The notes beneath the pieces were generated by a model, which was not told where the DNA came from, did not search any database, and worked only from the letters and a program-made list of their open reading frames with translations. A stretch of DNA of 64,000 bases from Escherichia coli (GTDB lineage: Bacteria; Pseudomonadota; Gammaproteobacteria; Enterobacterales; Enterobacteriaceae). Position numbers and translations under genes: made by a program. How positions within the stretch are numbered: the first letter of the stretch is position 1; the number at the start of each line of letters is the position of its first letter. Of the stretch, positions 2,761 through 26,785 are shown piece by piece. Location of the stretch: NCBI RefSeq assembly GCF_051903065.1, contig NZ_CP178438.1. The stretch is one strand, 5' to 3'.

Positions 2761-5700
2761 GATTTCATCAAACCAACGCGCAGTATCTGGATGATGGTTT
2801 CCACAATACGGTTAACCTGATTCATTCCGGCACCAATTTCCCGGCAGGCCGTAAACAGCAGTGGTAGCAGACTTGTCTTAACGACTTTCTCAATGTCCTG
2901 GGGGTTCAGGGAGTTTTCTGCCACCGCTCTAACGATAATGCTGTCCACTTCAAAAGCCAGCTTCGTCCACTTATCCTGCACCTGAACGTCTTTTACCACA
3001 AAAACCTCAGGTAGCTCTTTTTTAAATACACCGTAATACGCCTGAGCATGCTTGTTTACCGCCAGTGCATCCGGGATATCGCTGAGCTTACGGGCTTCAA
3101 CCTGTTCTTCAAACTCACGGAATAAGAGGTACTGCTTAAGTGGATGGTCGAACAGTTTTTCAGCCTCTTCGATTGCCATACGCAGGAGTCTGGAAAAGGC
3201 CTCCTGAGCATACGGATCATCACGCAGCTCCTGCTCAATCATCTTCGTCACACGGGTTTTAATGATGTCGGTTTCATTGCGGGTTTTATTGTTGTCCCAC
3301 TCTTCGGGCTTTTCGCTCTTACCCATTTTACCGACTTCATACACGCCATCCGGTTCACGAACCTCAACGCCGGTGACATGCTTATCCAGCAGTTTTTTCA
3401 CCTGCTCGGCGTAGTCGTCATAATTGACCTGCTCTCCACTGACCTGCATCGCCCACTGGCGCAGGCTGGACATCTGTTTTACGGTTTCTTTATAGAGGTT
3501 TCGGTCTTGTTCCGTAAAGCTCTTGTCGGTGAAGAAGGTGGCGGACTGCAGTGCCACTTTCAGGCATCCGGCAAAGGCCGTTAACGCCTCGAAGAAATCA
3601 TCACGGGTTTTCTGATGGATATCGACCATCTCTCCGTCACGTTCTTCCATTTTAGGCACCAGTACCGCACGTAACTGCTCAGTATCATTTTTGTTTTTGA
3701 CACCAGCAAATATGGCCCACAGCTGGTTATACAGATGCGGCAGGCGCTTGTATTCAGAGCTCATGGCGCTGTACAGCCCGTCAATATCTTTGATGTCGTA
3801 TCCGCCCTGAGTTCGGGAGGCGAGGTCCTGATATTTGCCGATAGTCGTGTCCAGCTCAGCCAGAATACCGCGATAATCAATCAGCAGACCGAACTTTTTT
3901 AGTGGATGCAGTCGGTTCACCCGCGCAATCGCCTGGATAAGGTTGTGGGACTTAAGCGGCTTGTCGATATACAGCACGGTATTCTTCGGCTCATCAAACC
4001 CGGTGAGCAGTTTATCAACGACTATCAGCAATTTGAGCTTCTCATCGGTATCGAAACGACTGATGATATTGCGGGTATACACAGACTCATCCTGCGTGCC
4101 GACGTTATCTTTCCACCATTTCGTCACTTCCGGCAGTTTGCTTTCATCCACCTCAGTATTCCCTTCCCGGGTATCCGGCGGGCTGATAACTACAGCTGAC
4201 TCAAACAACCCGGCTTCATCAAGATACTTTTTATATTTGATGGCGGAAATCTTGCTGTCGCAGGCAAGCTGGCCTTTCAGCCCCTCATCAATATTCTTCG
4301 AGAAGTGCGTGGCGATATCGAGTGCGATCAGACGGATGCGATCATCTGCACTATAAACCTCACCTTTACGGGCATATTTACGCTTAAGGTCGGCTTTTTG
4401 CGCTTCGCTTAACCCATCGGTAATACGATCAAACCAGGCATCTATTGCCCGATCGTTAACCTCAAGGTCGGGAATACGTTCTTCATACAGCAAAGGTGTA
4501 ACGGCTTTATCTTCTACCGCTCGCTGCATGGTATAAGCGTGGACAATCGGTCCGAATTTATTGGTGGTCTTATCTTCTTTTAGCAATGGCGTACCAGTAA
4601 ATGCTACAAAGGCGGCGTTCGGCAGTGCCAGTTTCATTCGCACATGGTTCTCACCACCCTGGCTACGGTGTCCTTCATCAATCAGAACGATGATATCGGG
4701 GCTGGTATTGACGCATTCAGGAAGTTTTGTCGCTGAATTAAATTTCTGGATTAGGGTGAAAATGATGCGTTCTTTACCGGAGCCAATCTGTTTCGCCAGC
4801 ATCTGCCCGGATGTCGCCATTGCATTGGCTTTGTCTTTTTTCCCGGCCAACTCGCCGCCGGATGCAAAGGTACTGCTGAGCTGTTCTTCAAGATCGATAC
4901 GGTCCGTCACCACCACGATACGACACCGCTTCAGGCTGTCATGAAGGATCAGCGCCTTGCTGAGGAACACCATGGTGTACGATTTGCCAGAGCCGGTGGT
5001 ATGCCAGATAACACCACCTTCCCTGCCCCCATCGGGTCTGCGGGTACTGATGCGTTCCAGCAGTCTTTTAATCCCGAACACCTGCTGATAGCGGGCAACA
5101 ATTTTTCCGGTCTTTTTATCAAACAGGGTGAAGAAGCGGGTCATCTCCAGCAGACGTTCCGGCGAAAGCAGACTGATGAGCAGCTTATCCTGCCCGCTGA
5201 CAGCCAGTTCCCCCCCGGCGATTAACTGCTGATACCAGTTGAGATCGCCAACAGGACGATGCTCAAATAACGCATCAATTTGTTCAGTCGATAAAGGATG
5301 GTTGCGCAGGGCATACATCTGCGCATCGGTAATATCCTCTTCGCGCCATGCCGCCCAGAATTTCATTGGCGTATGGCATGTACCGTAGCGCCCGTCATGA
5401 CCGTTAATCGAAAGTAATAACTGGCTGTAGACAAACAGCTGCGGGATTTCATCGTTGAACTGGTTGCGGATACTCTGGGATATCCCCTCGTCAATGGTTG
5501 GCCCTTTCTTGCCATGACCAGCCGGGCTTTTCGCTTCAATAACAGCCAGCGGGATACCATTAACAAAGCAGACAATATCTGGCCTCCGGGTTTCAACACC
5601 ACCTGACCGCAATACCGTAAATTCTTCAGTAAAATGGAACTGGTTATTTTCCGGATGTTCCCAGTCGATCAGCGCAATGGTGGGGTTGACCTTCTTGCCA

Positions 5701-6044
5701 TCGACAAACTCCGTGACGGCGATACCGTAGAGCAGATGGTTATACATCCGCTCATTGGCTTTGAGCAGCCCTTCATTCAGCGCCGGAGAACAGACCTGTG
5801 ATATCAGGTTATCCAGTGCTTTTTCCGATAACTGGCAGGTTTTGCCACCCGCCATAAAGGAACGCTTCGACAGCTCTTCACGCAGAACCGGACGCAGCAC
5901 CACCTCATCCTGTTTATAGCCCCGGTAATCCATAATCTGTTTCGGAGATAAAAACGCCCAGCCGAGGCTGGTCAGTAACGTCAGTGCCGGAATTTTGGCG
6001 CTGTATTCTTCCTGGAATTTTGGCGTGTACGTCTGGTTCATCAT
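2757..6044 (-). CDS. hsdR: Type I restriction enzyme R subunit
   Basis: 1095-aa ORF with helicase motifs (GSGKS Walker A, DEGH box). Confidence 0.9.
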   Translation of the reverse strand: MMNQTYTPKFQEEYSAKIPALTLLTSLGWAFLSPKQIMDYRGYKQDEVVLRPVLREELSKRSFMAGGKTCQLSEKALDNLISQVCSPALNEGLLKANERMYNHLLYGIAVTEFVDGKKVNPTIALIDWEHPENNQFHFTEEFTVLRSGGVETRRPDIVCFVNGIPLAVIEAKSPAGHGKKGPTIDEGISQSIRNQFNDEIPQLFVYSQLLLSINGHDGRYGTCHTPMKFWAAWREEDITDAQMYALRNHPLSTEQIDALFEHRPVGDLNWYQQLIAGGELAVSGQDKLLISLLSPERLLEMTRFFTLFDKKTGKIVARYQQVFGIKRLLERISTRRPDGGREGGVIWHTTGSGKSYTMVFLSKALILHDSLKRCRIVVVTDRIDLEEQLSSTFASGGELAGKKDKANAMATSGQMLAKQIGSGKERIIFTLIQKFNSATKLPECVNTSPDIIVLIDEGHRSQGGENHVRMKLALPNAAFVAFTGTPLLKEDKTTNKFGPIVHAYTMQRAVEDKAVTPLLYEERIPDLEVNDRAIDAWFDRITDGLSEAQKADLKRKYARKGEVYSADDRIRLIALDIATHFSKNIDEGLKGQLACDSKISAIKYKKYLDEAGLFESAVVISPPDTREGNTEVDESKLPEVTKWWKDNVGTQDESVYTRNIISRFDTDEKLKLLIVVDKLLTGFDEPKNTVLYIDKPLKSHNLIQAIARVNRLHPLKKFGLLIDYRGILAELDTTIGKYQDLASRTQGGYDIKDIDGLYSAMSSEYKRLPHLYNQLWAIFAGVKNKNDTEQLRAVLVPKMEERDGEMVDIHQKTRDDFFEALTAFAGCLKVALQSATFFTDKSFTEQDRNLYKETVKQMSSLRQWAMQVSGEQVNYDDYAEQVKKLLDKHVTGVEVREPDGVYEVGKMGKSEKPEEWDNNKTRNETDIIKTRVTKMIEQELRDDPYAQEAFSRLLRMAIEEAEKLFDHPLKQYLLFREFEEQVEARKLSDIPDALAVNKHAQAYYGVFKKELPEVFVVKDVQVQDKWTKLAFEVDSIIVRAVAENSLNPQDIEKVVKTSLLPLLFTACREIGAGMNQVNRIVETIIQILRVGLMKS

Positions 6045-14419: not shown

Positions 14420-15476
14420 GGCTTTGTTGAATAAATCGAACTTTTGCTGAGTTGAAGGATCAGATCACGTATCTTCCCGACAACGCAGACCGTTCCGTGG
14501 CAAAGCAAAAGTTCAAAATCACCAACTGGCCCACCTACAATAAAGCCCTCATCAACCGTGGCTCCATAACTTTCTGGCTGGATGATGAAGCTATTCAGGC
14601 CTGGTATGAGTCAGCAACACCTTCTTCACGAGGCAGACCTCAGCGCTATTCTGACCTTGCCATCACGACTGTGCTGGTCATTAAACGCGTATTCAGGCTG
14701 ACCCTGCGCGCTGCGCAGGGCTTTATTGATTCCATTTTTTCTCTGATGAACGTTCCGCTACGCTGCCCGGATTACAGCTGTGTCAGCAGGCGGGCAAAGT
14801 CGGTTAATGTCAGTTTCAAAACGCCCACCCGGGGTGAAATCGCACACCTGGTAATTGATTCCACCGGGCTGAAGGTCTTCGGTGAAGGCGAGTGGAAAGT
14901 CAAAAAGCATGGCCAGGAACGCCGCCGTATCTGGCGTAAGCTGCATCTCGCCGTTGACAGTAAAACACATGAAATCATCTGCGCTGACCTGTCGCTGAAC
15001 AACGTTACGGACTCAGAGGCCTTCCCCGGGTTAATCCGGCAAACCCACCGGAAAATCAGGTCAGCCGCCGCCGATGGCGCTTACGATACCCGGCTATGTC
15101 ACGATGAACTGCGGCGTAAGAAAATCAGCGCGCTTATCCCTCCCCGAAAAGGTGCGGGTTACTGGCCCGGTGAATATGCAGACCGTAACCGTGCAGTGGC
15201 TAATCAGCGAATGACCGGGAGTAATGCGCGGTGGAAATGGACAACAGATTACAACCGTCGCTCGATAGCGGAAACGGCGATGTACCGGGTAAAACAGCTG
15301 TTCGGGGGTTCACTGACACTGCGTGACTACGATGGTCAGGTTGCAGAGGCTATGGCCCTGGTACGAGCGCTGAACAAAATGACGAAAGCAGGTATGCCTG
15401 AAAGCGTGCGTATTGCCTGAAAACACAACCCGCTACGGGGGAGACTTACCCGAAATCTGATTTATTCAACAAAGCC
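14420..15476 (+). mobile_element. IS903-like element (IS5 family), 1057 bp with terminal inverted repeats
   Basis: Terminal IRs ggctttgttgaataaatcg / cagatttattcaacaaagcc; transposase ORF; 9-bp flanking duplications. Confidence 0.85.
14452..15420 (+). CDS. IS5-family (IS903 group) DDE transposase
   Basis: ORF inside the IS; N-terminus QKFKITNWPTYNKALINRGSITFWLD; true start may be internal. Confidence 0.85.
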   Translation: MKDQITYLPDNADRSVAKQKFKITNWPTYNKALINRGSITFWLDDEAIQAWYESATPSSRGRPQRYSDLAITTVLVIKRVFRLTLRAAQGFIDSIFSLMNVPLRCPDYSCVSRRAKSVNVSFKTPTRGEIAHLVIDSTGLKVFGEGEWKVKKHGQERRRIWRKLHLAVDSKTHEIICADLSLNNVTDSEAFPGLIRQTHRKIRSAAADGAYDTRLCHDELRRKKISALIPPRKGAGYWPGEYADRNRAVANQRMTGSNARWKWTTDYNRRSIAETAMYRVKQLFGGSLTLRDYDGQVAEAMALVRALNKMTKAGMPESVRIA

Positions 15477-16065
15477 GCAGCAAACACAGCTGTAGACAAC
15501 GATGAAAAATATCTGTCCTTTGCATTAGTTCTCGCTATCACGATTATGGACAACTTAGTAAAGCTCATCGGCACAGATGGCTTCGTACTTTATACCTACA
15601 CCCTGCAGGACACGGCTACTGCTCGTGCTGTTTTTAATGAATTAGCCAGGCGTCTCAAAAATTTCAATCGTCAGGAGGAGGTCTACACCACCGATTCCCT
15701 CACCTTTCGAATGAAATACATTTACGGTGTTACCCTGTTCGAACATGATAGTAAATCTATCCTTAACCTCTTTGATAAGAAGGGTTATCCGGTATTGAGT
15801 GAATCAGGAGAACCCGGTTCTCTTGATGATATGTATCTTGACATTCAAGCCCGATTACATGGCGGCTACGCCTCAAAAAAGTTTCTTCATTTACATGAAC
15901 ATTGTCTGTTATCTGCACACGTTACCCCGTCTGTGGAAAAGACGCAACGCGGTATCCTGATTAAAGTAGGCAGGAAACTCGTTTCCTTTATCCATGTAGA
16001 TGATGAATCACACAAAACCGATATTTTCAAATCTGTAGTAAATGTTATTAAATCTTGATTCTTTA

Positions 16066-16093
16066 TGCCGGGACACAGCTCCCGGCATTTTTT
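16066..16093 (+). terminator. Hairpin plus T-tract just upstream of the piPolB start
   Basis: tgccggga-cacagc-tcccggca followed by tttttt. Confidence 0.5.
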
Positions 16094-16104
16094 CGGAGTT
16101 AACT

Positions 16105-18705
16105 ATGAGCAATAATTTGCAGGACATCCTCGCTGCCGCCTCGGGGTATCAGTCCGTGACTTCAGAGCCAGCGTTCAATCGTAAAAGACCTAAAACGCTT
16201 GATGATTATCCTGTGATACCACCTGCATCAAAAAAAGTATCTGTTATTTCAAGTGACCTGACACTCCATATCGGTTTTGATACCGAATATGTTTTCAACC
16301 CTGAAACACGACAGAATGATATTCTGTCATATCAGAGTTATGTTGTCTTACCCGATAATACAGGTATATCGAACATTATCTATCCACCTGACTCACAGAA
16401 AAAATCCCGGCTGTCTTTTAAGGAATTTCTCTGTCAAACGATTACACCGCTTCTTGAAACGGGTGTGATTACAAAATGGCCCGGTATTATTAATATATAT
16501 GCGCATTTCATTCGTGCGGATATCGCCTCCTTTGCCAATTTCTGGTCAGACTACAAAATTCTTCTGAAAGGAATACGCGGTACTGTCAGCAGCTTCAAAA
16601 ATCGTTACGGTATCGATTTTGATGAACAGCAGGAACGTCGCGTAAAGACTGAACAGATAATGTTTGACAAACGAACTTCCCCTCCGCGTTGCAGTAACGT
16701 AGCTTTCATCGATACACTGCTTATCACTCCCGGGGGTATGGGTCTGGCTGAATGTGGTGAATTACTGGGTCTTCCCAAACTCACCATTCCTGCACCTTAT
16801 TCCATAACCAATATGCGTGAATATCTTCTGGGCGACAGAGCAGGGTTTGAAGCCTATGCTCTGCGGGATGCCGAGATTGCGGTTCGTTATGCTTTACAGG
16901 TTCGCAATTTTTGCGCCCGGGAGCTGATGATTGATCGTGTCCCCGCCACCATCGGGGCGATGGCAGTTTCACGGTTCACCAAAACACTTAAAGAAAACAA
17001 TATGTCTCCTGAAGTCTGCCTTGGGACACACATTAAAACCCGTGAACTCTGGCTCACGGAGAAACAGGCATTCCGGACGATTAAAAACCCCGCCAGTGTT
17101 CCTTCAAGAGAGTTGTTTGAAACGTTCCCGATCAACTGTTACCACGGCGGACGCAATGAGTGTTTTATGATGGGGGTTACACCGTCTGATCACTGGTATG
17201 ACTACGATCTGGCTGGAGCGTATACCACCGGGCTATTAGATATCCTCACACCCGATTACGGGAACATCCGCCTCAGTAAAAATCCGGACGATTACTGTGG
17301 GCATGTAATGGGATTTGCGCTTGTCACATTTCGGTTCCCGGAATCAGTTCCCTATCCCAGCCTGCCGGTTCGGACCGATCAATATGGGTTATTCTTTCCA
17401 TTAAGTGGCGAATCATGGGCAACGGCACCTGAAATCGAACTTGCTCTGTCGCTCGGGGCAGAGATGACGATCCATAATGGGATCATCGTCCCCTGGATCT
17501 GTGACACCTCCCCACATAACAGCGAATCAACATCGGTGTTTCTTCCCTTTGTTCAACAGGTCCGTGAGAACCGTAATCGCCATATTAAAGGTTCTCTGGA
17601 GGAGAAATTCTGGAAAGAAATTGGCAACTCGCTTTATGGCAAACTTGCTCAGGGCCTTCGCGCCAAAACCGCCTTTGATACTGCCCGTGGATTAAACAGA
17701 TCCCTCCCACCATCATCGGTTACTCAGCCATTCTTTGCTGCGCATGTGACGGGATTTATCCGCGCCGTTGTCGGGGAACTCATGAATGCTTTGCCTTCTG
17801 ATTCATCGGTTGTCAGCGTCACAACCGATGGTTTTTTGACAAATTGCCCACTTGACAAGATAAACATGAGCGGTCCACTGTCTTCCCGCTTCCAGTCGCT
17901 GTGCGATATTGTTGATCCGGGTTCATCAATGTTGACATGTAAGCATGAGGTCAGCCAGCTTATCGCCATGAAAACCCGGGGGCAGTTAACCTATAGAGCT
18001 ATTCAGGGAAAACCTGTTGTTCATGCCAGGGCTGGCGTCAAACCTCCTGCCGATATTCCACGCAGTGACTATAACGACTATATGGTAGATCTTTACCTTA
18101 ATCGTTTACCCGGTCAGACGTTATCCCGAAGTACGTTGATATCAACGCGTGAGATGTGGCTCTCGGAAAGCGATCTGGTATCCCGGGAACAGGATATCCG
18201 TCTTAATCTGGAATTCGATTTCAAACGCCAGCCCGTACAGCCCGCCATGAATGAAGGGCATTTACTGATGTTTTCCCGCCCGTGGGATAATATGGAAGAG
18301 GCTCTGCAGCAACGCTCTCTTTTCGACGACTGGCGGCAAACGCATACACTGAAGACCCTGGCTGACTGGGATGACTGGTGTGATTTTCTCTATTGCCGGA
18401 CGGTGTTTTCTGATATGAAACTAAAAGTCGGAAGCAAACGTAGTGATGATATTTTAGTCAGACTATTTCTCCGGGCGCTGACTCAGTGCCAATGGGGGCT
18501 GATGCTGAAAGATAAAAAAAGTTATTCCTGTAAAGAGGTTGCTGAATGGCTGACGTCAGAAGGCTATTCAGTAACGGTGACTGATGTAAAAAATGCGGTA
18601 AGAGCAAAAATACCCCAAATGAAATTTAGTTCTGTAACACCGCGAATGAAGTCACTGATGGATATCATAGCCCGTAAATATCCGACATTCTGTCTTCCAG
18701 TCTGA
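16105..18705 (+). CDS. Family-B DNA polymerase of the primer-independent (piPolB) type
   Basis: Exo I FDTEY, Exo III YALRD, motif B NSLYGKL, motif C VTTDG, and KTRG in place of KxY; start taken at MSNNLQ after GGAG. Confidence 0.8.
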   Translation: MSNNLQDILAAASGYQSVTSEPAFNRKRPKTLDDYPVIPPASKKVSVISSDLTLHIGFDTEYVFNPETRQNDILSYQSYVVLPDNTGISNIIYPPDSQKKSRLSFKEFLCQTITPLLETGVITKWPGIINIYAHFIRADIASFANFWSDYKILLKGIRGTVSSFKNRYGIDFDEQQERRVKTEQIMFDKRTSPPRCSNVAFIDTLLITPGGMGLAECGELLGLPKLTIPAPYSITNMREYLLGDRAGFEAYALRDAEIAVRYALQVRNFCARELMIDRVPATIGAMAVSRFTKTLKENNMSPEVCLGTHIKTRELWLTEKQAFRTIKNPASVPSRELFETFPINCYHGGRNECFMMGVTPSDHWYDYDLAGAYTTGLLDILTPDYGNIRLSKNPDDYCGHVMGFALVTFRFPESVPYPSLPVRTDQYGLFFPLSGESWATAPEIELALSLGAEMTIHNGIIVPWICDTSPHNSESTSVFLPFVQQVRENRNRHIKGSLEEKFWKEIGNSLYGKLAQGLRAKTAFDTARGLNRSLPPSSVTQPFFAAHVTGFIRAVVGELMNALPSDSSVVSVTTDGFLTNCPLDKINMSGPLSSRFQSLCDIVDPGSSMLTCKHEVSQLIAMKTRGQLTYRAIQGKPVVHARAGVKPPADIPRSDYNDYMVDLYLNRLPGQTLSRSTLISTREMWLSESDLVSREQDIRLNLEFDFKRQPVQPAMNEGHLLMFSRPWDNMEEALQQRSLFDDWRQTHTLKTLADWDDWCDFLYCRTVFSDMKLKVGSKRSDDILVRLFLRALTQCQWGLMLKDKKSYSCKEVAEWLTSEGYSVTVTDVKNAVRAKIPQMKFSSVTPRMKSLMDIIARKYPTFCLPV

Positions 18706-18753
18706 TAACCGTTAAATCTCCCCCAACTCCTTTAACAGAAGTTGGGGGCTTAA

Positions 18754-19080
18754 TCACAGGCAATCGGCATCAAAACAGTGAAATAACTGCCGCGCGTCAG
18801 GATGGCCATTTACATGATAGATCCGCATGGCATGACAGGTGATACTCTGGAGATTAGCCGCCAGCCTTTTCCCCATATTCACCAGTATGCCGTGTGGTAT
18901 TTTACTGCTTGTACTGTTTACTGTCAGAGTAAAACAATTTGTTTCAACGCTGACCTCAATAAAATCATTTCCAAATAATGTACCGACAACCTGCCTGATT
19001 GTTTCTTCATAATCTGTCAGATCAATGACATCACGCCATCTCGCATTTACGAGTTGATACTTTCTGATATGTAAATACAT
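18754..19080 (-). CDS. Hypothetical protein (108 aa)
   Basis: ORF with AAAGGTGG RBS. Confidence 0.45.
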   Translation of the reverse strand: MYLHIRKYQLVNARWRDVIDLTDYEETIRQVVGTLFGNDFIEVSVETNCFTLTVNSTSSKIPHGILVNMGKRLAANLQSITCHAMRIYHVNGHPDARQLFHCFDADCL

Positions 19081-19299
19081 AGAACCACCTTTATGTTATT
19101 TCAACTAATATGATGTTCTCCGATATTATGAAAATATTAATCATCATTGTAATTGCTGATAACCTCTCTAACCTTCGGATCTTACGTTCCCCCCTGCCTC
19201 TCCGACTTGATGGCAAAAGTGCATGGTCAAATATGCAGCAAAAACATGTCATGTACAGGTCAGGATAATAATTATCACCCTGAACTTAAAAATACACAT

Positions 19300-19410
19300 G
19301 GACAGGATGAGTCCACATGTTATTCGATGATTCCAGCAATGTTTTAATATATTGATAATTAATGAGTTAATTTTTTTCTCCGTCACAGTAAAAGTGGACT
19401 CATCCTGTCC
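19300..19410. repeat. Perfect 17-bp inverted repeat pair (19300..19316 and 19394..19410) around a 77-bp AT-rich spacer, upstream of the WYL regulator gene
   Basis: ggacaggatgagtccac and its exact reverse complement gtggactcatcctgtcc. Confidence 0.7.
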
Positions 19411-19459
19411 GTTACTTTGCTGAAAATATCCTCTTCGCTGGCATTAACCGGATAAACGA

Positions 19460-20362
19460 ATGGGTAAGCACGATAAACTTGGATATCGACTCGGATTGAT
19501 ATTAACTCGCCTGAACAATGGTGAGTCACTAGCCGTCCGGGAGTTATCTGAGGAATTTAACGTTTGCGAAAAAACTATCCGTCGCGATCTTACTCAGCGC
19601 CTGTCCTATCTTAATCTGATTCGACAAAATGGTCGCTATCGCCTGTCTGACGGTGTTCTCGGTCAACGCAGCAATGCTGATTTACGTCATTTCACGCGCA
19701 TCCTGGGTATTGAAGGGCTGTTCCCTCGCTGGGATGACAGACTACTGAGTATTTTGTTAGGTAACACGAAAAATAACCCGTTTCTGATAAAACAACGTCC
19801 ATACGAAAACTGCGGATCATTCATGTCAATTCTGAATGTATTATCCGATGCCATCCTGTCACAGAAGAAAGTAAATTTTAATTACAAAGATAAAGAGTTT
19901 CGGGCTGTTGAGCCATACAGACTGGTTAATGACAACGGATTGTGGTATCTCGCTGCCGCCCATGACAGTACATTAAAAAGCTTTGTTATCTCATCTGTCA
20001 AAGACGTTTGCATGAGTAATATCTCTTTCAGGATAATCCCCGAAATTAATGAAAAAATAGAAAAGACAGATGGTATCTGGTATAGCGAAGACCTTATCGA
20101 AGTTCTCATTTCAGTTTCCGCACATGTTGCTCCGTGGTTTACCCACCGTCATCTATTGCCAGGACAGGAAATAATTCATACTTCCCGGTCTGGCGATTTA
20201 CTGGTGATATCACGTGTAACACACACAGATCAGATAATGCCTTTAATGAAATACTGGATACCGGATGTCGAAGTAATACAACCGGCCTCAATCCGTCAAC
20301 AACTTGCTGAAGATATACAATCCGCACTGAAACGTTACACCCAGCCAAGTAACGCCCCGTAA
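19460..20362 (+). CDS. WYL-domain transcriptional regulator (HTH-WYL-WCX; YafY/BrxR/CapW-like)
   Basis: N-terminal HTH ([21 protein letters not shown]), central GLWYL signature. Confidence 0.75.
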
Positions 20363-20423
20363 TGACACGGATAATATAATTTTCATTAAGTGCTATTTTT
20401 ATAAGCTAAAAAATGGAGTTACC

Positions 20424-21242
20424 ATGAAAAAATGCCCGGTTCTTCTTGTTGTATCAGGGTTTCTGACCGAAAATGATATATCATGGTTTAACCGAATTAA
20501 AGCAGGGTGTGGCCTTGATGTCAGATACTATAAATGGGAATCGGCAAATCTACTATCCATATTAAGTTCTGACATAGCGAACAAGTGGGGGTTATATACT
20601 CTCTTCCCCCTGAGAACATCTCCTTTATTGTCATCAATCTCCATTCCATTTAAAGCGCGTCAGGCCTGGTATAATGCAACGAAAGCAGCAGTTAATAACA
20701 GAGAAAAATTAGCACACGTAATAAACGAGATATACGTTAAAGAAAAGCGTAATGTGATCATAATGGGTCATTCTTTAGGGACTCGATTAATAAACAATAC
20801 ATTACCCTATATAAAAAATGATAATATTCTCTTAACAATCTCTATGGCCGGAGCCACCCCAATAACAAGTTATACAGAGAACATAATGAAAATGGCTTAC
20901 GGTTCAAAAATGGGGCATTTAAATATCTACAGTGAACATGATAAAGTACTTAACACGATATACCCTCTCGTAGAGTCAGTAACGCCAATTGGGGTTCGGG
21001 AGGTGAGATTCAGACCTGCTCGGGTGATCAACTGGAAGTGGGATATTGGTCACACTGAATATATTACTTCAAACAGGATTGATTCATTAACACACTGGTT
21101 AAATGTTACCTGTGCCGATTTAGCTGATCCAGCCGTAGAAATCACTGACGACGACATGAAATCATTTCATGATATTATTAATCTTGCGAATTTAACATGT
21201 CATAAAAACACTGTCGCACCTAAATTAATATCATTTGAGTAG
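20424..21242 (+). CDS. Putative alpha/beta hydrolase (GHSLG nucleophile elbow)
   Basis: 272 aa, IIMGHSLGTR motif; GGAG RBS; 61 bp downstream of the WYL gene. Confidence 0.55.
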   Translation: MKKCPVLLVVSGFLTENDISWFNRIKAGCGLDVRYYKWESANLLSILSSDIANKWGLYTLFPLRTSPLLSSISIPFKARQAWYNATKAAVNNREKLAHVINEIYVKEKRNVIIMGHSLGTRLINNTLPYIKNDNILLTISMAGATPITSYTENIMKMAYGSKMGHLNIYSEHDKVLNTIYPLVESVTPIGVREVRFRPARVINWKWDIGHTEYITSNRIDSLTHWLNVTCADLADPAVEITDDDMKSFHDIINLANLTCHKNTVAPKLISFE

Positions 21243-21261: not shown

Positions 21262-21300
21262 TAACGGGAGTGTATATTTACTCCCGTTAAGTTTCATATT
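21262..21300. terminator. Stem-loop between convergent hydrolase and small HTH genes
   Basis: taacgggag-loop-ctcccgtta, T-rich downstream. Confidence 0.45.
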
Positions 21301-21372
21301 TTATAGAATTGATATGGGGTGATGCTGCCAACTTACTGATTTAGTGTATGATGGTGTTTTTGAGGTGCTCCA

Positions 21373-21648
21373 GTGGCTTCTGTTTCTATCAGCTGTCCCT
21401 CCTGTTCAGCTACTGAAGGCGTGGTGCGTAACGGTAAAAGTACTGCCGGACATCAGCGCTATCTCTGCTCTCACTGCCGTAAAACATGGCAACTGCAGTT
21501 CACTTACACCGCTTCTCAACCCGGTACGCACCAGAAAATCATTGATATGGCCATGAATGGCGTTGGATGCCGGGCAACCGCCCGCATTATGAGCGTTGGC
21601 CTCAACACGATTTTCCGCCATTTAAAAAACTCAGGCCGCAGTCGGTAA
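21373..21648 (+). CDS. insA: IS1 InsA
   Basis: 91-aa ORF. Confidence 0.85.
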
Positions 21649-22070
21649 CCTCGCGCATACAGCCGGGCAGTGACGTCATCGTCTGCGCGGAAATGGACGA
21701 ACAGTGGGGCTATGTCGGGGCTAAATCGCGCCAGCGCTGGCTGTTTTACGCGTATGACAGGCTCCGGAAGACGGTTGTTGCGCACGTATTCGGTGAACGC
21801 ACTATGGCGACGCTGGGGCGTCTTATGAGCCTGCTGTCACCCTTTGACGTGGTGATATGGATGACGGATGGCTGGCCGCTGTATGAATCCCGCCTGAAGG
21901 GAAAGCTGCACGTAATCAGCAAGCGATATACGCAGCGAATTGAGCGGCATAACCTGAATCTGAGGCAGCACCTGGCACGGCTGGGACGGAAGTCGCTGTC
22001 GTTCTCAAAATCGGTGGAGCTGCATGACAAAGTCATCGGGCATTATCTGAACATAAAACACTATCAATAA
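21567..22070 (+). CDS. insB: IS1 InsB reading frame (expressed as InsAB' by -1 frameshift)
   Basis: 167-aa ORF overlapping insA. Confidence 0.8.
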
Positions 22071-26698: not shown

Positions 26699-26785
26699 TG
26701 GTACCCGGAGCGGGACTTGAACCCGCACAGCGCGAACGCCGAGGGATTTTAAATCCCTTGTGTCTACCGATTCCACCATCCGGGC
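26699..26785 (-). tRNA. leuZ: tRNA-Leu (anticodon UAA)
   Basis: 87-nt match to recalled E. coli leuZ, CCA end encoded. Confidence 0.9.

What the first reader, a model, noticed from the sequence alone, without database searches (positions are those of the whole stretch)
19300..19410. Perfect 17-bp inverted repeat around a 77-bp AT-rich spacer upstream of the WYL gene
ggacaggatgagtccac (19300..19316) and its exact reverse complement (19394..19410) flank a very AT-rich 77-bp spacer that ends ~50 bp before the WYL start codon. This could be an operator for the WYL regulator, a large regulatory hairpin in the leader, or a small invertible segment.
Basis: seen in the sequence. Interest (0 to 1): 0.5.

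Follow-up and report, generated by a model that had tools for sequence, protein, structure and literature searches.

The report
Paired WYL-regulator binding boxes at promoter
The perfect inverted repeat is real and is most likely two copies of the DNA site bound by the neighbouring WYL regulator of an E. coli pipolin island; the gene-side copy sits in the regulator's own promoter in the layout known for the activators DriD and PafBC, so this is a new example of a known kind of control site.

Summary
In detail: 19300-19316 and 19394-19410 are exact reverse complements around a 77-bp spacer of 25% GC. No such repeat appeared in shuffled sequence.

The window is an E. coli pipolin, a mobile island carrying a primer-independent DNA polymerase, inserted at tRNA-Leu. 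The repeat lies upstream of an HTH-WYL-WCX regulator gene that is followed by a DUF726 hydrolase gene.

Each arm is a 13-bp box, GAC-N7-GTC. Fifteen loci encoding homologues of the regulator (100% down to 33% identity) all carry this box upstream of the gene. In every locus a -10-like hexamer (nAnnnT) starts exactly 12 nt after the box, and none has a -35 hexamer. This matches published promoters of two WYL activators, DriD (CGAC-N7-GTCG) and PafBC (tGTCgg-N10-tAnnnT). DriD is also the closest solved structure.

A second, oppositely oriented box lies 51-111 bp upstream in ten loci, mostly near whole helical turns. Four distant loci have only one box.

The rival readings fail. About 170 genomes show one orientation only, the element is single-copy, and the arms lie upstream of the predicted -10 hexamer. 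Outside E. coli the arms match at only 10-12 of 13 positions.

Binding, activation versus repression, and the ligand were not tested.

The parts
19300..19316 (.). Distal WYL box (left arm). The core 13-mer is GACAGGATGAGTC at 19301-19313, with the extended palindrome TGGAC-N7-GTCCA.
   Evidence: A box in this orientation lies 51-111 bp upstream of the proximal box in 10 loci. Within E. coli and Citrobacter only one G/T polymorphism is seen.
19317..19393 (.). AT-rich spacer of 77 bp between the 17-mers (83 bp between the 13-mer cores), containing a T7 tract. I infer an UP-element-like or bendable region between the two boxes.
   Evidence: 24.7% GC. Spacers in homologous loci are 18-29% GC in 8 of 10 loci, against 44-54% for the loci as a whole. 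The centre is invariant in E. coli and Citrobacter while the ends vary.
19394..19410 (+). Proximal WYL box (right arm). The core 13-mer is GACTCATCCTGTC at 19397-19409. It is predicted to span about -37 to -25 of the WYL-gene promoter, where a -35 element would normally lie.
   Evidence: The box starts at -63 from the ATG in 9 loci, and at -61 to -103 in the other six. It is invariant in E. coli and Citrobacter. The composite pattern of box, 12 nt and nAnnnT occurs only at the two arms in the 64-kb window.
19422..19427 (+). Predicted -10 hexamer GAAAAT of the WYL-gene promoter. The predicted transcription start is near 19434, giving a leader of about 26 nt.
   Evidence: A hexamer with A at position 2 and T at position 6 starts exactly 12 nt after the box in 15 of 15 loci. 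Information content peaks at the box and at this hexamer. No transcription start was mapped.
19283..19288 (-). Mirror-image -10-like hexamer, TAAGTT (TACGTT in most E. coli and in Citrobacter), 12 nt beyond the distal box on the minus strand. It may mark a WYL-dependent leftward promoter.
   Evidence: An equivalent hexamer is present in L004, L007, L020 and L022 but absent in L009, L012, L006, L016 and L010, so the evidence is weak.
19460..20362 (+). Gene for a 300-aa HTH-WYL-WCX transcription regulator, the presumed binding protein.
   Evidence: Pfam HTH_DeoR, WYL and WCX domains. The profile matches PafBC and DriD in the PDB. The best Foldseek match is DriD, 8tp8, at E 2e-13.
20424..21242 (+). 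DUF726 alpha/beta-hydrolase gene, probably co-transcribed with the WYL gene as variable cargo.
   Evidence: Pfam DUF726 and LCAT. No terminator-like site lies in the 61-nt gap. The gene in this position differs between loci.
21262..21289 (+). Terminator-like hairpin after the DUF726 gene, the probable end of the two-gene unit.
   Evidence: an 11-bp stem. This is a consensus scan only.
18754..19080 (-). Divergent 108-aa gene of unknown function. It has its own sigma-70-like promoter candidate at 19153-19125 and is a possible target of a leftward promoter at the distal box.
   Evidence: The gene is not conserved next to the WYL gene in other lineages.

Best explanation
The two arms are two copies of the DNA site recognised by a dimer of the adjacent HTH-WYL-WCX regulator.

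The proximal (right) arm is part of the WYL-DUF726 promoter. It covers roughly -37 to -25, the place of the missing -35 element, and sits at a fixed 12 nt from the -10 hexamer. DriD sites occupy this position in DriD-activated promoters, and so does the PafBC '-26 element'. I therefore infer that the ligand-bound regulator recruits RNA polymerase and switches on its own gene and the downstream cargo gene.

The distal (left) arm is the same box in mirror orientation, 96 bp away (about 9 helical turns), across an AT-rich spacer. I infer that it helps the proximal site through cooperative binding or looping on one face of the helix, or serves a mirror-image leftward promoter, or both.

Shown: the sequence architecture and its conservation. 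Inferred: protein binding, the transcription start, the direction of regulation, the ligand, and the role of the distal box.
For: - The repeat is real and non-random.
- The box GAC-N7-GTC lies upstream of the WYL gene in all 15 loci examined, from 100% to 33% protein identity. These include pipolin and non-pipolin contexts with different neighbouring and downstream genes.
- The proximal box always has the same orientation, with CCTGTC toward the gene, and is followed after exactly 12 nt by nAnnnT in 15 of 15 loci. This holds even where the distance to the ATG differs (-61 to -103).
- No -35 hexamer is present.
- Published sites have the same geometry. The DriD consensus is ATACGAC-N7-GTCGTAT. 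DriD promoter probes read GTC, then 12 nt, then the -10 hexamer CAATCT, and the authors' 'optimised -35' falls inside the box. Cryo-EM shows DriD over the -35 position at a fixed distance from the -10 hexamer. The PafBC motif is tGTCgg-N10-tAnnnT in promoters lacking a -35 element. The DdaA motif is CGWCA-N5-TGWCG. The boxes of L014 and L015 fit the DriD and DdaA motifs exactly.
- The closest solved relatives of the protein are DriD and PafBC, ahead of CapW and BrxR.
- The two boxes of a locus change in parallel, and each box keeps its own half-site palindrome.
- Centre-to-centre spacings are 96, 85, 83, 94, 84, 51 and 111 bp. Six of these seven lie within 0.15 turn of a whole number of 10.5-bp turns.
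- In L022 both boxes have a -10-like hexamer at 12 nt and each faces a gene.
Against: - No binding, transcription-start or expression data exist for this locus. The -10 hexamer is only predicted, and in E. coli it is weak (GAAAAT).
- A site over the -35/spacer region is also a classic repressor position. The characterised WYL regulators of defence islands, BrxR and CapW, are repressors.
- The AT-rich spacer contains other -10-like hexamers (GATAAT in the window, TATAAT in L012 and L016). These could be the true promoter, which would place the proximal box downstream of the start as a roadblock.
- The mirror -10 hexamer at the distal box is present in only about half of the lineages.
- L010's spacing is out of helical phase, and the phasing test is post hoc with seven lineages.
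- Two of the three basic residues of the DriD/PafBC ssDNA-binding motif are absent: K-S-F-V-I-S-S here against R-S-W-R-L-D-R in DriD. The ligand may therefore not be ssDNA.
- Close homologues share ancestry, so their agreement is not fully independent evidence.
Confidence: 0.6

Rival explanations
1. The two boxes are bound by the same WYL protein, but it acts as a BrxR/CapW-type repressor. The unliganded dimer sits on the proximal box and blocks RNA polymerase. The distal box strengthens repression by looping the AT-rich spacer, and ligand binding releases the protein.
For: The HTH-WYL-WCX regulator sits in a defence island upstream of variable cargo genes, as BrxR and CapW do. The box overlaps the core promoter. 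Two in-phase sites separated by an AT-rich spacer resemble classical repression loops.
Against: BrxR sites lie downstream of the -10 hexamer and CapW sites overlap it, whereas this box lies upstream at the DriD/PafBC position. The promoters lack a -35 element in every lineage, so they should be weak without help. The strict 12-nt spacing is kept even in very distant loci, which occlusion does not require. DriD and PafBC are closer relatives than BrxR and CapW.
Confidence: 0.25
2. The repeat acts as a nucleic-acid structure: a long hairpin in an RNA leader, or a cruciform in DNA, that controls expression or replication.
For: The 131-nt region folds better than shuffled versions (z = -4.4). Arm-to-arm pairing shows covariation across loci.
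Against: The fold score comes only from the perfect 17-bp stem. Both arms lie upstream of the conserved -10-like hexamer. Outside E. coli the arms match at 10-12 of 13 positions with uncompensated mismatches. Four loci keep one box with no partner. Each box is self-palindromic, which a long hairpin does not require. There was no Rfam match.
Confidence: 0.04
3. The segment is a small invertible switch, flipped by one of the island's tyrosine recombinases acting on the 17-bp repeats.
For: The inverted repeats have an asymmetric 7-bp core and flank an AT-rich segment. The island encodes tyrosine recombinases.
Against: A query with the 111-bp segment inverted had no full-length match of 99% or more. 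All roughly 170 full-length matches were the native arrangement, at about 88% identity to the inverted query. A metagenome copy, L024, has the same orientation. The predicted -10 hexamer is outside the segment. The boxes occur next to WYL genes with no recombinase gene called nearby. 77 bp is very short for synapsis.
Confidence: 0.03
4. The 111-bp unit is a miniature transposable element or a remnant with terminal inverted repeats and has no regulatory role.
For: It has perfect terminal inverted repeats around a short AT-rich body.
Against: There is one copy per genome, always at this locus, in 174 E. coli genomes. There is no flanking target-site duplication (the flanks are ...acacat and gttact...). 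The arms are conserved at the same place in homologues down to 33% identity while the spacers differ completely.
Confidence: 0.02

Closest known systems
DriD-activated promoters of Caulobacter crescentus (didA, CCNA_03891/driD, bapE)
   Same: The regulator has the same domain order, wHTH-WYL-WCX, and DriD is the best structural match. The box has the same GAC-N7-GTC half-site geometry. The box covers the -35 position, no -35 hexamer is recognisable, and the distance from GTC to the -10 hexamer is the same 12 nt. One DriD target lies in a bidirectional promoter next to the regulator gene, and bapE has two candidate sites.
   Different: Protein identity is only about 15%. The host is an enterobacterium with sigma-70. 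The box flanks are TGGAC/GTCCA rather than ATACGAC/GTCGTAT. The box here has an asymmetric conserved core (AGGTTGT) with fixed orientation. The promoter here drives the regulator's own gene. A second, inverted box lies 8-9 helical turns upstream. Two Arg residues of the ssDNA-binding motif are missing. Nothing has been tested experimentally.
PafBC-dependent promoters of mycobacteria ('-26 element', sigma adaptation)
   Same: The PafBC motif tGTCgg-N10-tAnnnT has the same spacing from GTC to the -10 hexamer, the promoters lack a -35 element, and the regulator is a WYL protein. PafBC is the best profile hit in the PDB.
   Different: PafBC is a fused heterodimer that reads a single half-site, with its other HTH contacting sigma region 4. 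Here there is a full palindromic box, implying a homodimer. The phylum differs.
DdaA box of Moraxellaceae (CGWCA-N5-TGWCG)
   Same: The motif is nearly identical to the family consensus here, GACA-N5-TGTC. The boxes of L014 and L015 fit it exactly. DdaA is a WYL activator linked to DNA damage and anti-phage genes.
   Different: [quoted passage not shown]
BrxR and CapW operators (WYL repressors of BREX and CBASS defence islands)
   Same: Both have the HTH-WYL-WCX architecture, sit next to variable defence cargo on mobile islands, and bind palindromic sites upstream of the regulator gene. pEFER carries two R-boxes.
   Different: The BrxR site is an 11-bp repeat with a 5-bp gap, downstream of the -10 hexamer. 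CapW sites are 19-24 bp and overlap the -10 hexamer. Both proteins are repressors and are more distant structural matches (E about 1e-8, against 2e-13 for DriD).
WYL core gene of gammaproteobacterial pipolins (Mateo-Caceres et al. 2024, PMC11551731)
   Same: This is that gene. It is described as a conserved core marker alongside piPolB, IntSXT and DUF2787.
   Different: That paper does not mention inverted repeats ('inverted repeat' occurs 0 times in its text). No other paper in the searched library dealt with pipolin WYL regulation.

Membership tests
DriD/PafBC-type WYL-activator promoter | The regulator has wHTH, WYL and WCX domains. | tested here: met
   Pfam HTH_DeoR, WYL and WCX. Foldseek best match DriD at 2e-13, then PafBC. 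Profile hits to PafBC and DriD.
DriD/PafBC-type WYL-activator promoter | A pseudo-palindromic box with GAC and GTC half-sites 7 nt apart. | tested here: met
   Both arms in the window and all 15 loci. Published consensus.
DriD/PafBC-type WYL-activator promoter | The box covers the -35 position at a fixed distance from the -10 element (GTC, 12 nt, -10 hexamer), with no recognisable -35 hexamer. | tested here: met
   15 of 15 loci have nAnnnT starting 12 nt after GTC. Compare. The -10 hexamer is predicted, not mapped.
DriD/PafBC-type WYL-activator promoter | The protein binds the box and raises transcription when bound to ligand (ssDNA). | not testable with these tools
   Needs EMSA or footprinting, reporter assays and in vitro transcription. 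Only one of the three basic residues of the ssDNA-binding motif (K173) is kept.
BrxR/CapW-type repressor operator | A palindromic operator overlapping or downstream of the -10 element. | tested here: not met
   The box ends 12 nt upstream of the conserved -10-like hexamer, whereas BrxR and CapW sites lie on or after the -10 hexamer.
BrxR/CapW-type repressor operator | Repression that is relieved on infection or DNA damage. | not testable with these tools
   No expression data are available.
Invertible promoter switch (inverton) | Both orientations are found among genomes or reads. | tested here: not met
   The inverted query had no full-length match of 99% or more in 5,426 E. coli genomes, while about 170 have the native orientation. 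L024 is also native. Raw reads were not examined.
Invertible promoter switch (inverton) | A dedicated recombinase travels with the repeats. | tested here: not met
   The boxes follow the WYL gene into loci where no recombinase gene was called near the WYL gene (L013, L015).
MITE / IS remnant | Multiple copies per genome and target-site duplications. | tested here: not met
   One place per genome in 174 genomes. No direct repeat flanks the element.
Structured leader RNA (attenuator or riboswitch) | The element lies inside the transcript and its pairing is maintained by compensatory change. | tested here: not met
   It lies upstream of the predicted -10 hexamer. There are single-box loci and uncompensated mismatches. 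No Rfam hit. The transcription start is unmapped, so the position argument is an inference.

The most novel reading that the evidence does not exclude
The E. coli pipolin WYL protein is a DriD-like activator that takes the place of the -35 contact. It works with sigma-70 polymerase from two mirror-image boxes, forming a ligand-triggered bidirectional promoter pair or loop. This unit switches on exchangeable cargo genes when the island or the cell produces the ligand, for example ssDNA from phage attack, DNA damage or the island's own piPolB-driven replication. It would be the first such mechanism in Enterobacteria and would give the conserved but unexplained pipolin WYL core gene a role.
Probability: 0.3. 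Interest if true: 0.55.

Novelty: new member of a known kind. Interest (0 to 1): 0.4.

Why it matters
Pipolins are widespread defence islands, and their conserved WYL gene has no assigned role. This analysis supplies a defined binding motif (GAC-N7-GTC), a predicted promoter layout, a candidate two-gene unit and clear mutational targets, so the role can be tested directly in E. coli. The layout 'GTC, 12 nt, -10 hexamer, no -35 hexamer' is shared by this enterobacterial family, Caulobacter DriD and actinobacterial PafBC. That suggests this way of replacing the -35 contact is an old and general property of WYL regulators. It could be used to predict WYL-controlled promoters in other genomes.

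Tried and rejected
- **Multi-copy element.** A search with the 121-bp unit found one place per genome, so a MITE was rejected.
- **Inversion.** A synthetic inverted query found no matching genome.
- **Rfam.** A scan of 18000-21000 at E <= 1 found nothing.
- **Consensus promoter scan.** No sigma-70 promoter at 9/12 or better was found in or after the spacer. This fits a promoter without a -35 element but is not informative on its own.
- **DNA fold.** The z-score of -4.4 reflects only the perfect stem.
- **Further boxes in the window.** Four weak matches, at 4084, 9717, 25059 and 46718, are no more than chance gives, and none has the -10 hexamer at 12 nt. No wider regulon was seen in the window.
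- **Direct sequence search of the PDB.** The single protein found nothing. The profile and the fold search were needed.
- **PADLOC.** Only generic WYL models matched, and there was no hit for the DUF726 protein.
- **Genome-contig scan.** It returned only two near-identical Citrobacter loci.
- **Metagenome DNA-pattern scan.** It returned four hits. One is a new homologue (L022) and one is an E. coli copy (L024). L021 and L023 are long palindromes; L023 sits between a kinase/phosphatase gene and an MFS transporter gene, and L021's neighbours were not identified.
- **Breakpoint in the right arm (strain OW1E2).** I suspected a recombination hot spot, but the junction is an IS3 end, so this is an ordinary IS-linked deletion.
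- **The divergent 108-aa gene as a conserved partner.** Upstream genes are unrelated between lineages.
- **Mirror -10 hexamer at the distal box as a general feature.** It is present in only about half of the lineages.

Full report
**1. The observation**

GGACAGGATGAGTCCAC (19300-19316) and its exact reverse complement (19394-19410) are present, with 77 nt between them. The spacer is 24.7% GC. The 17-mer has no other match in the window even with three mismatches allowed. A perfect inverted repeat of 17 bp or more within 200 bp occurs once in the window and never in 20 shuffles. The right arm ends 49 nt before the ATG at 19460.

**2. Context**

The window is E. coli chromosome. The 321-bp region is 100% identical to strain 23CRST027 and is present in 187 of 5,426 complete genomes.

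The annotated neighbourhood is an island next to tRNA-Leu, pgsA and uvrC. It carries a type I restriction-modification system, tyrosine recombinases, IS remnants and a 'DNA polymerase type-B family protein'. tRNA-Leu lies at 26699-26785. This is a pipolin, and the 887-aa ORF at 16042-18705 is its piPolB.

The repeat lies in the 379-bp gap between a 108-aa gene of unknown function (18754-19080, minus strand) and a 300-aa gene (19460-20362). The 300-aa product has HTH_DeoR, WYL and WCX domains. A DUF726/LCAT-like hydrolase gene follows (20424-21242). No terminator-like site separates the two genes, and a terminator-like hairpin lies just after the hydrolase gene.

The 2024 pipolin survey lists the WYL gene as a core gene of gammaproteobacterial pipolins, and its text does not mention inverted repeats. 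I found no other paper on pipolin WYL regulation in the searchable library.

**3. Readings that fail**

- *Mobile element.* The 121-bp unit is found once per genome, always at this locus, in 174 genomes. It has no target-site duplication.
- *Invertible switch.* A query in which 19300-19410 was reverse-complemented between native flanks found no full-length high-identity match. The roughly 170 full-length matches were all the native arrangement, at about 88% identity to the inverted query. A metagenome copy also has the native orientation (L024).
- *Known RNA.* There was no Rfam match at E <= 1. The DNA fold z-score of -4.4 only restates that there is a 17-bp stem.

**4. Comparative evidence**

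Homologues of the WYL protein were collected at 74% to 30% identity. Their loci were then fetched, along with two Citrobacter loci. Scanning the 300 nt upstream of each gene for GAC-N7-GTC gave a very regular picture.

- A proximal box always reads GAC-(ACAAC)-CTGTC, with CCTGTC toward the gene.
- It starts at -63 from the ATG in nine loci, and at -61 to -69 in five more. In L014 and L015 it starts at -103 and -101.
- In ten loci a second box reads GACAGG-N4-GTC, the opposite orientation. Its centre lies 96 bp (window, Citrobacter), 85 bp (L009), 83 bp (L012, L006, L016), 94 bp (L007), 84 bp (L022), 111 bp (L010) or 51 bp (L020) upstream of the centre of the proximal box.
- Four distant loci (L013, L014, L015, L018) have only the proximal box, even at relaxed thresholds.

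The perfect 17/17 match is specific to E. coli. Citrobacter and some E. coli strains have 16/17. Other lineages match at 10-12 of the 13 core positions.

**5. Position in the promoter**

When all loci are aligned on the proximal box, a hexamer with A at position 2 and T at position 6 starts exactly 12 nt after the box in 15 of 15 loci. The hexamers are GAAAAT, GACAAT, GATAAT, CATAAT, GATACT, TATTGT, TAACCT, TAGGAT and TACACT. This holds even where the distance to the start codon differs by 40 nt. Information content peaks at GAC, at CCTGTC and at this hexamer, and nowhere else.

Taking the hexamer as the -10 element puts the 13-mer at about -37 to -25. The window's transcription start would then be near 19434, with a leader of about 26 nt. 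The positions where a -35 hexamer should sit, inside the box, never resemble TTGACA, and the consensus scan finds no sigma-70 promoter there. The composite pattern of box, 12 nt and nAnnnT occurs only twice in the 64-kb window, once at each arm and on opposite strands.

**6. Match to known WYL-regulator sites**

- DriD binds ATACGAC-N7-GTCGTAT.
- DdaA binds CGWCA-N5-TGWCG. The boxes of L014 and L015 (CGACA-N5-TGTCG) fit both motifs.
- The PafBC motif is tGTCgg-N10-tAnnnT, in promoters without a -35 element. The HTH of PafB reads the GTC triplet at -23 to -28.
- The probe printed in that paper reads ATACGAC-CGTTTCT-GTC, then GCAATGCGCGGA (12 nt), then CAATCT. The authors' 'optimised -35' is placed at positions 3-8 of the 13-mer. 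That is exactly the geometry found here.
- SiwR, another WYL activator, also binds a palindrome between the -35 and -10 positions and needs the -26 region.
- By contrast, BrxR repeats lie downstream of the -10 hexamer and CapW palindromes overlap it. Both proteins are repressors.

**7. The protein**

A direct sequence search of the PDB found nothing. A 15-sequence profile hits the WYL-WCX parts of PafBC (6.5e-11) and DriD (about 4e-9).

[quoted passage not shown] PafBC comes next, and CapW and BrxR follow at about 1e-8.

The WYL-domain motif that carries ssDNA-binding arginines in DriD (R-S-W-R-L-D-R) reads K-S-F-V-I-S-S here. Only one basic residue is kept, so the ligand is uncertain.

**8. 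One protein with two sites, or a hairpin?**

On an alignment of the ten two-box loci, arm-to-arm 'pairing' is 83% with covariation. The half-site palindrome inside each box is 82% paired, also with covariation. For example, the flanks are TGGAC...GTCCA in the E. coli clade and CGAC...GTCG in distant loci.

Parallel change of both boxes, together with self-symmetry of each box, is what two sites for one dimeric protein predict. A long hairpin does not need the second property and cannot exist in the single-box loci. Both arms also lie upstream of the predicted -10 hexamer. I therefore reject the leader-hairpin reading, with one caveat: the transcription start is predicted, not mapped.

**9. Role of the distal box and spacer (inferred)**

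Six of the seven independent spacings lie within 0.15 turn of a whole number of 10.5-bp turns. A crude binomial estimate gives about 0.004, but it is post hoc and based on few lineages. L010 is out of phase.

Spacers are 18-29% GC in eight of ten loci and carry T-tracts just upstream of the proximal box. I interpret this as bendable or UP-element-like DNA.

In L022 both boxes are followed at 12 nt by a -10-like hexamer, and each faces a gene: the WYL gene on one side and a 53-aa ORF with two predicted transmembrane segments on the other. The window (TAAGTT; TACGTT in most strains), L007 and L020 also have a mirror hexamer, but five lineages do not. The distal box may therefore aid the proximal one, drive a leftward promoter in some lineages, or both.

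**10. Activator or repressor?**

The box geometry, the absent -35 element, the weak -10 hexamer in E. coli and the closer kinship to DriD and PafBC all favour activation. The defence-island setting and the BrxR/CapW precedent favour repression. So does the possibility of an unrecognised promoter in the AT-rich spacer, which contains GATAAT or TATAAT hexamers at non-conserved positions.

My estimates are as follows:
- about 0.85 that the arms are binding sites for the WYL protein;
- about 0.6 for the full statement with activator-type geometry;
- about 0.25 for the repressor version.

**11. Verdict**

The finding is real and functional-looking, but it belongs to a known kind of element. It is a new, untested member of the DriD/PafBC-type class of WYL-controlled promoters. 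Its added feature is a second, mirrored box 8-9 helical turns upstream. Its value is that it gives the conserved pipolin WYL gene a concrete, testable regulatory model in E. coli.

Noticed in passing
window 19257-19286: A second palindrome, TCAGGATAATAATTATCACCCTGA, lies 14 bp to the left of the distal box. In Citrobacter both sides have changed (GATGAT-A-ATCATC), which keeps the palindrome. E. coli MLI104K2 has only one side changed. It may be the site of another regulator at a leftward promoter.
   Followed up: partly
L002 5922-6000 (E. coli OW1E2), junction at window 19398: In this strain everything from hsdM to the middle of the proximal box is replaced by an IS3 end. This is an IS-linked deletion that leaves half a box plus the -10 hexamer in front of the WYL gene.
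   Followed up: yes
L017 1-184; L003 6184-6889: Other IS damage affects the same unit. An IS1 end lies 8 nt upstream of the WYL ATG in an IMG/VR E. coli contig. In strain LR-46 the WYL-DUF726 pair has been lost next to an IS1.
   Followed up: partly
L022 about 5597-5906: In this metagenome homologue both boxes are followed at 12 nt by a -10-like hexamer. The mirrored one faces a 53-aa ORF with two hydrophobic segments, preceded by AAGGAG, which could be a small membrane effector.
   Followed up: partly
loci L006-L016, genes downstream of the WYL gene: The gene immediately after the WYL gene differs from locus to locus: DUF726 hydrolase, MMR_HSR1 GTPase, dynamin-like GTPases, a faint TerB hit, or unknown proteins of 131-145 aa. 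A DUF2787 gene is often nearby.
   Followed up: no
L021 24-120; L023 6524-6621: Two GC-rich metagenome contigs carry long perfect palindromes (arms over 30 nt) whose outer ends are box-like (CGACAGGATGAGTC..., GGACAGGGTGAGTCG...). The L023 palindrome lies between a kinase/PP2C phosphatase gene and an MFS transporter gene, with no WYL gene between. They are probably unrelated, but remain unexplained.
   Followed up: partly
window 19370-19376: The T7 tract in the spacer is T6 in some E. coli strains (MLI104K2, YY76-1), which changes the box-to-box distance from 96 to 95 bp.
   Followed up: no
window 19976-19999 (WYL residues 173-180): The WYL-domain motif reads K-S-F-V-I-S-S, where DriD has R-S-W-R-L-D-R and PafBC has K-R-V-F-R-L-S-R. 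Two arginines are missing, and arginines of the WYL domain were needed for activation in SiwR (R204, R207). The sensed ligand may therefore differ from ssDNA.
   Followed up: partly
window 14452-15420 and 21344-22070: Frameshifted IS5-family and IS1-family transposase remnants lie on either side of the block running from piPolB through the 108-aa gene and the WYL gene to the DUF726 gene.
   Followed up: no
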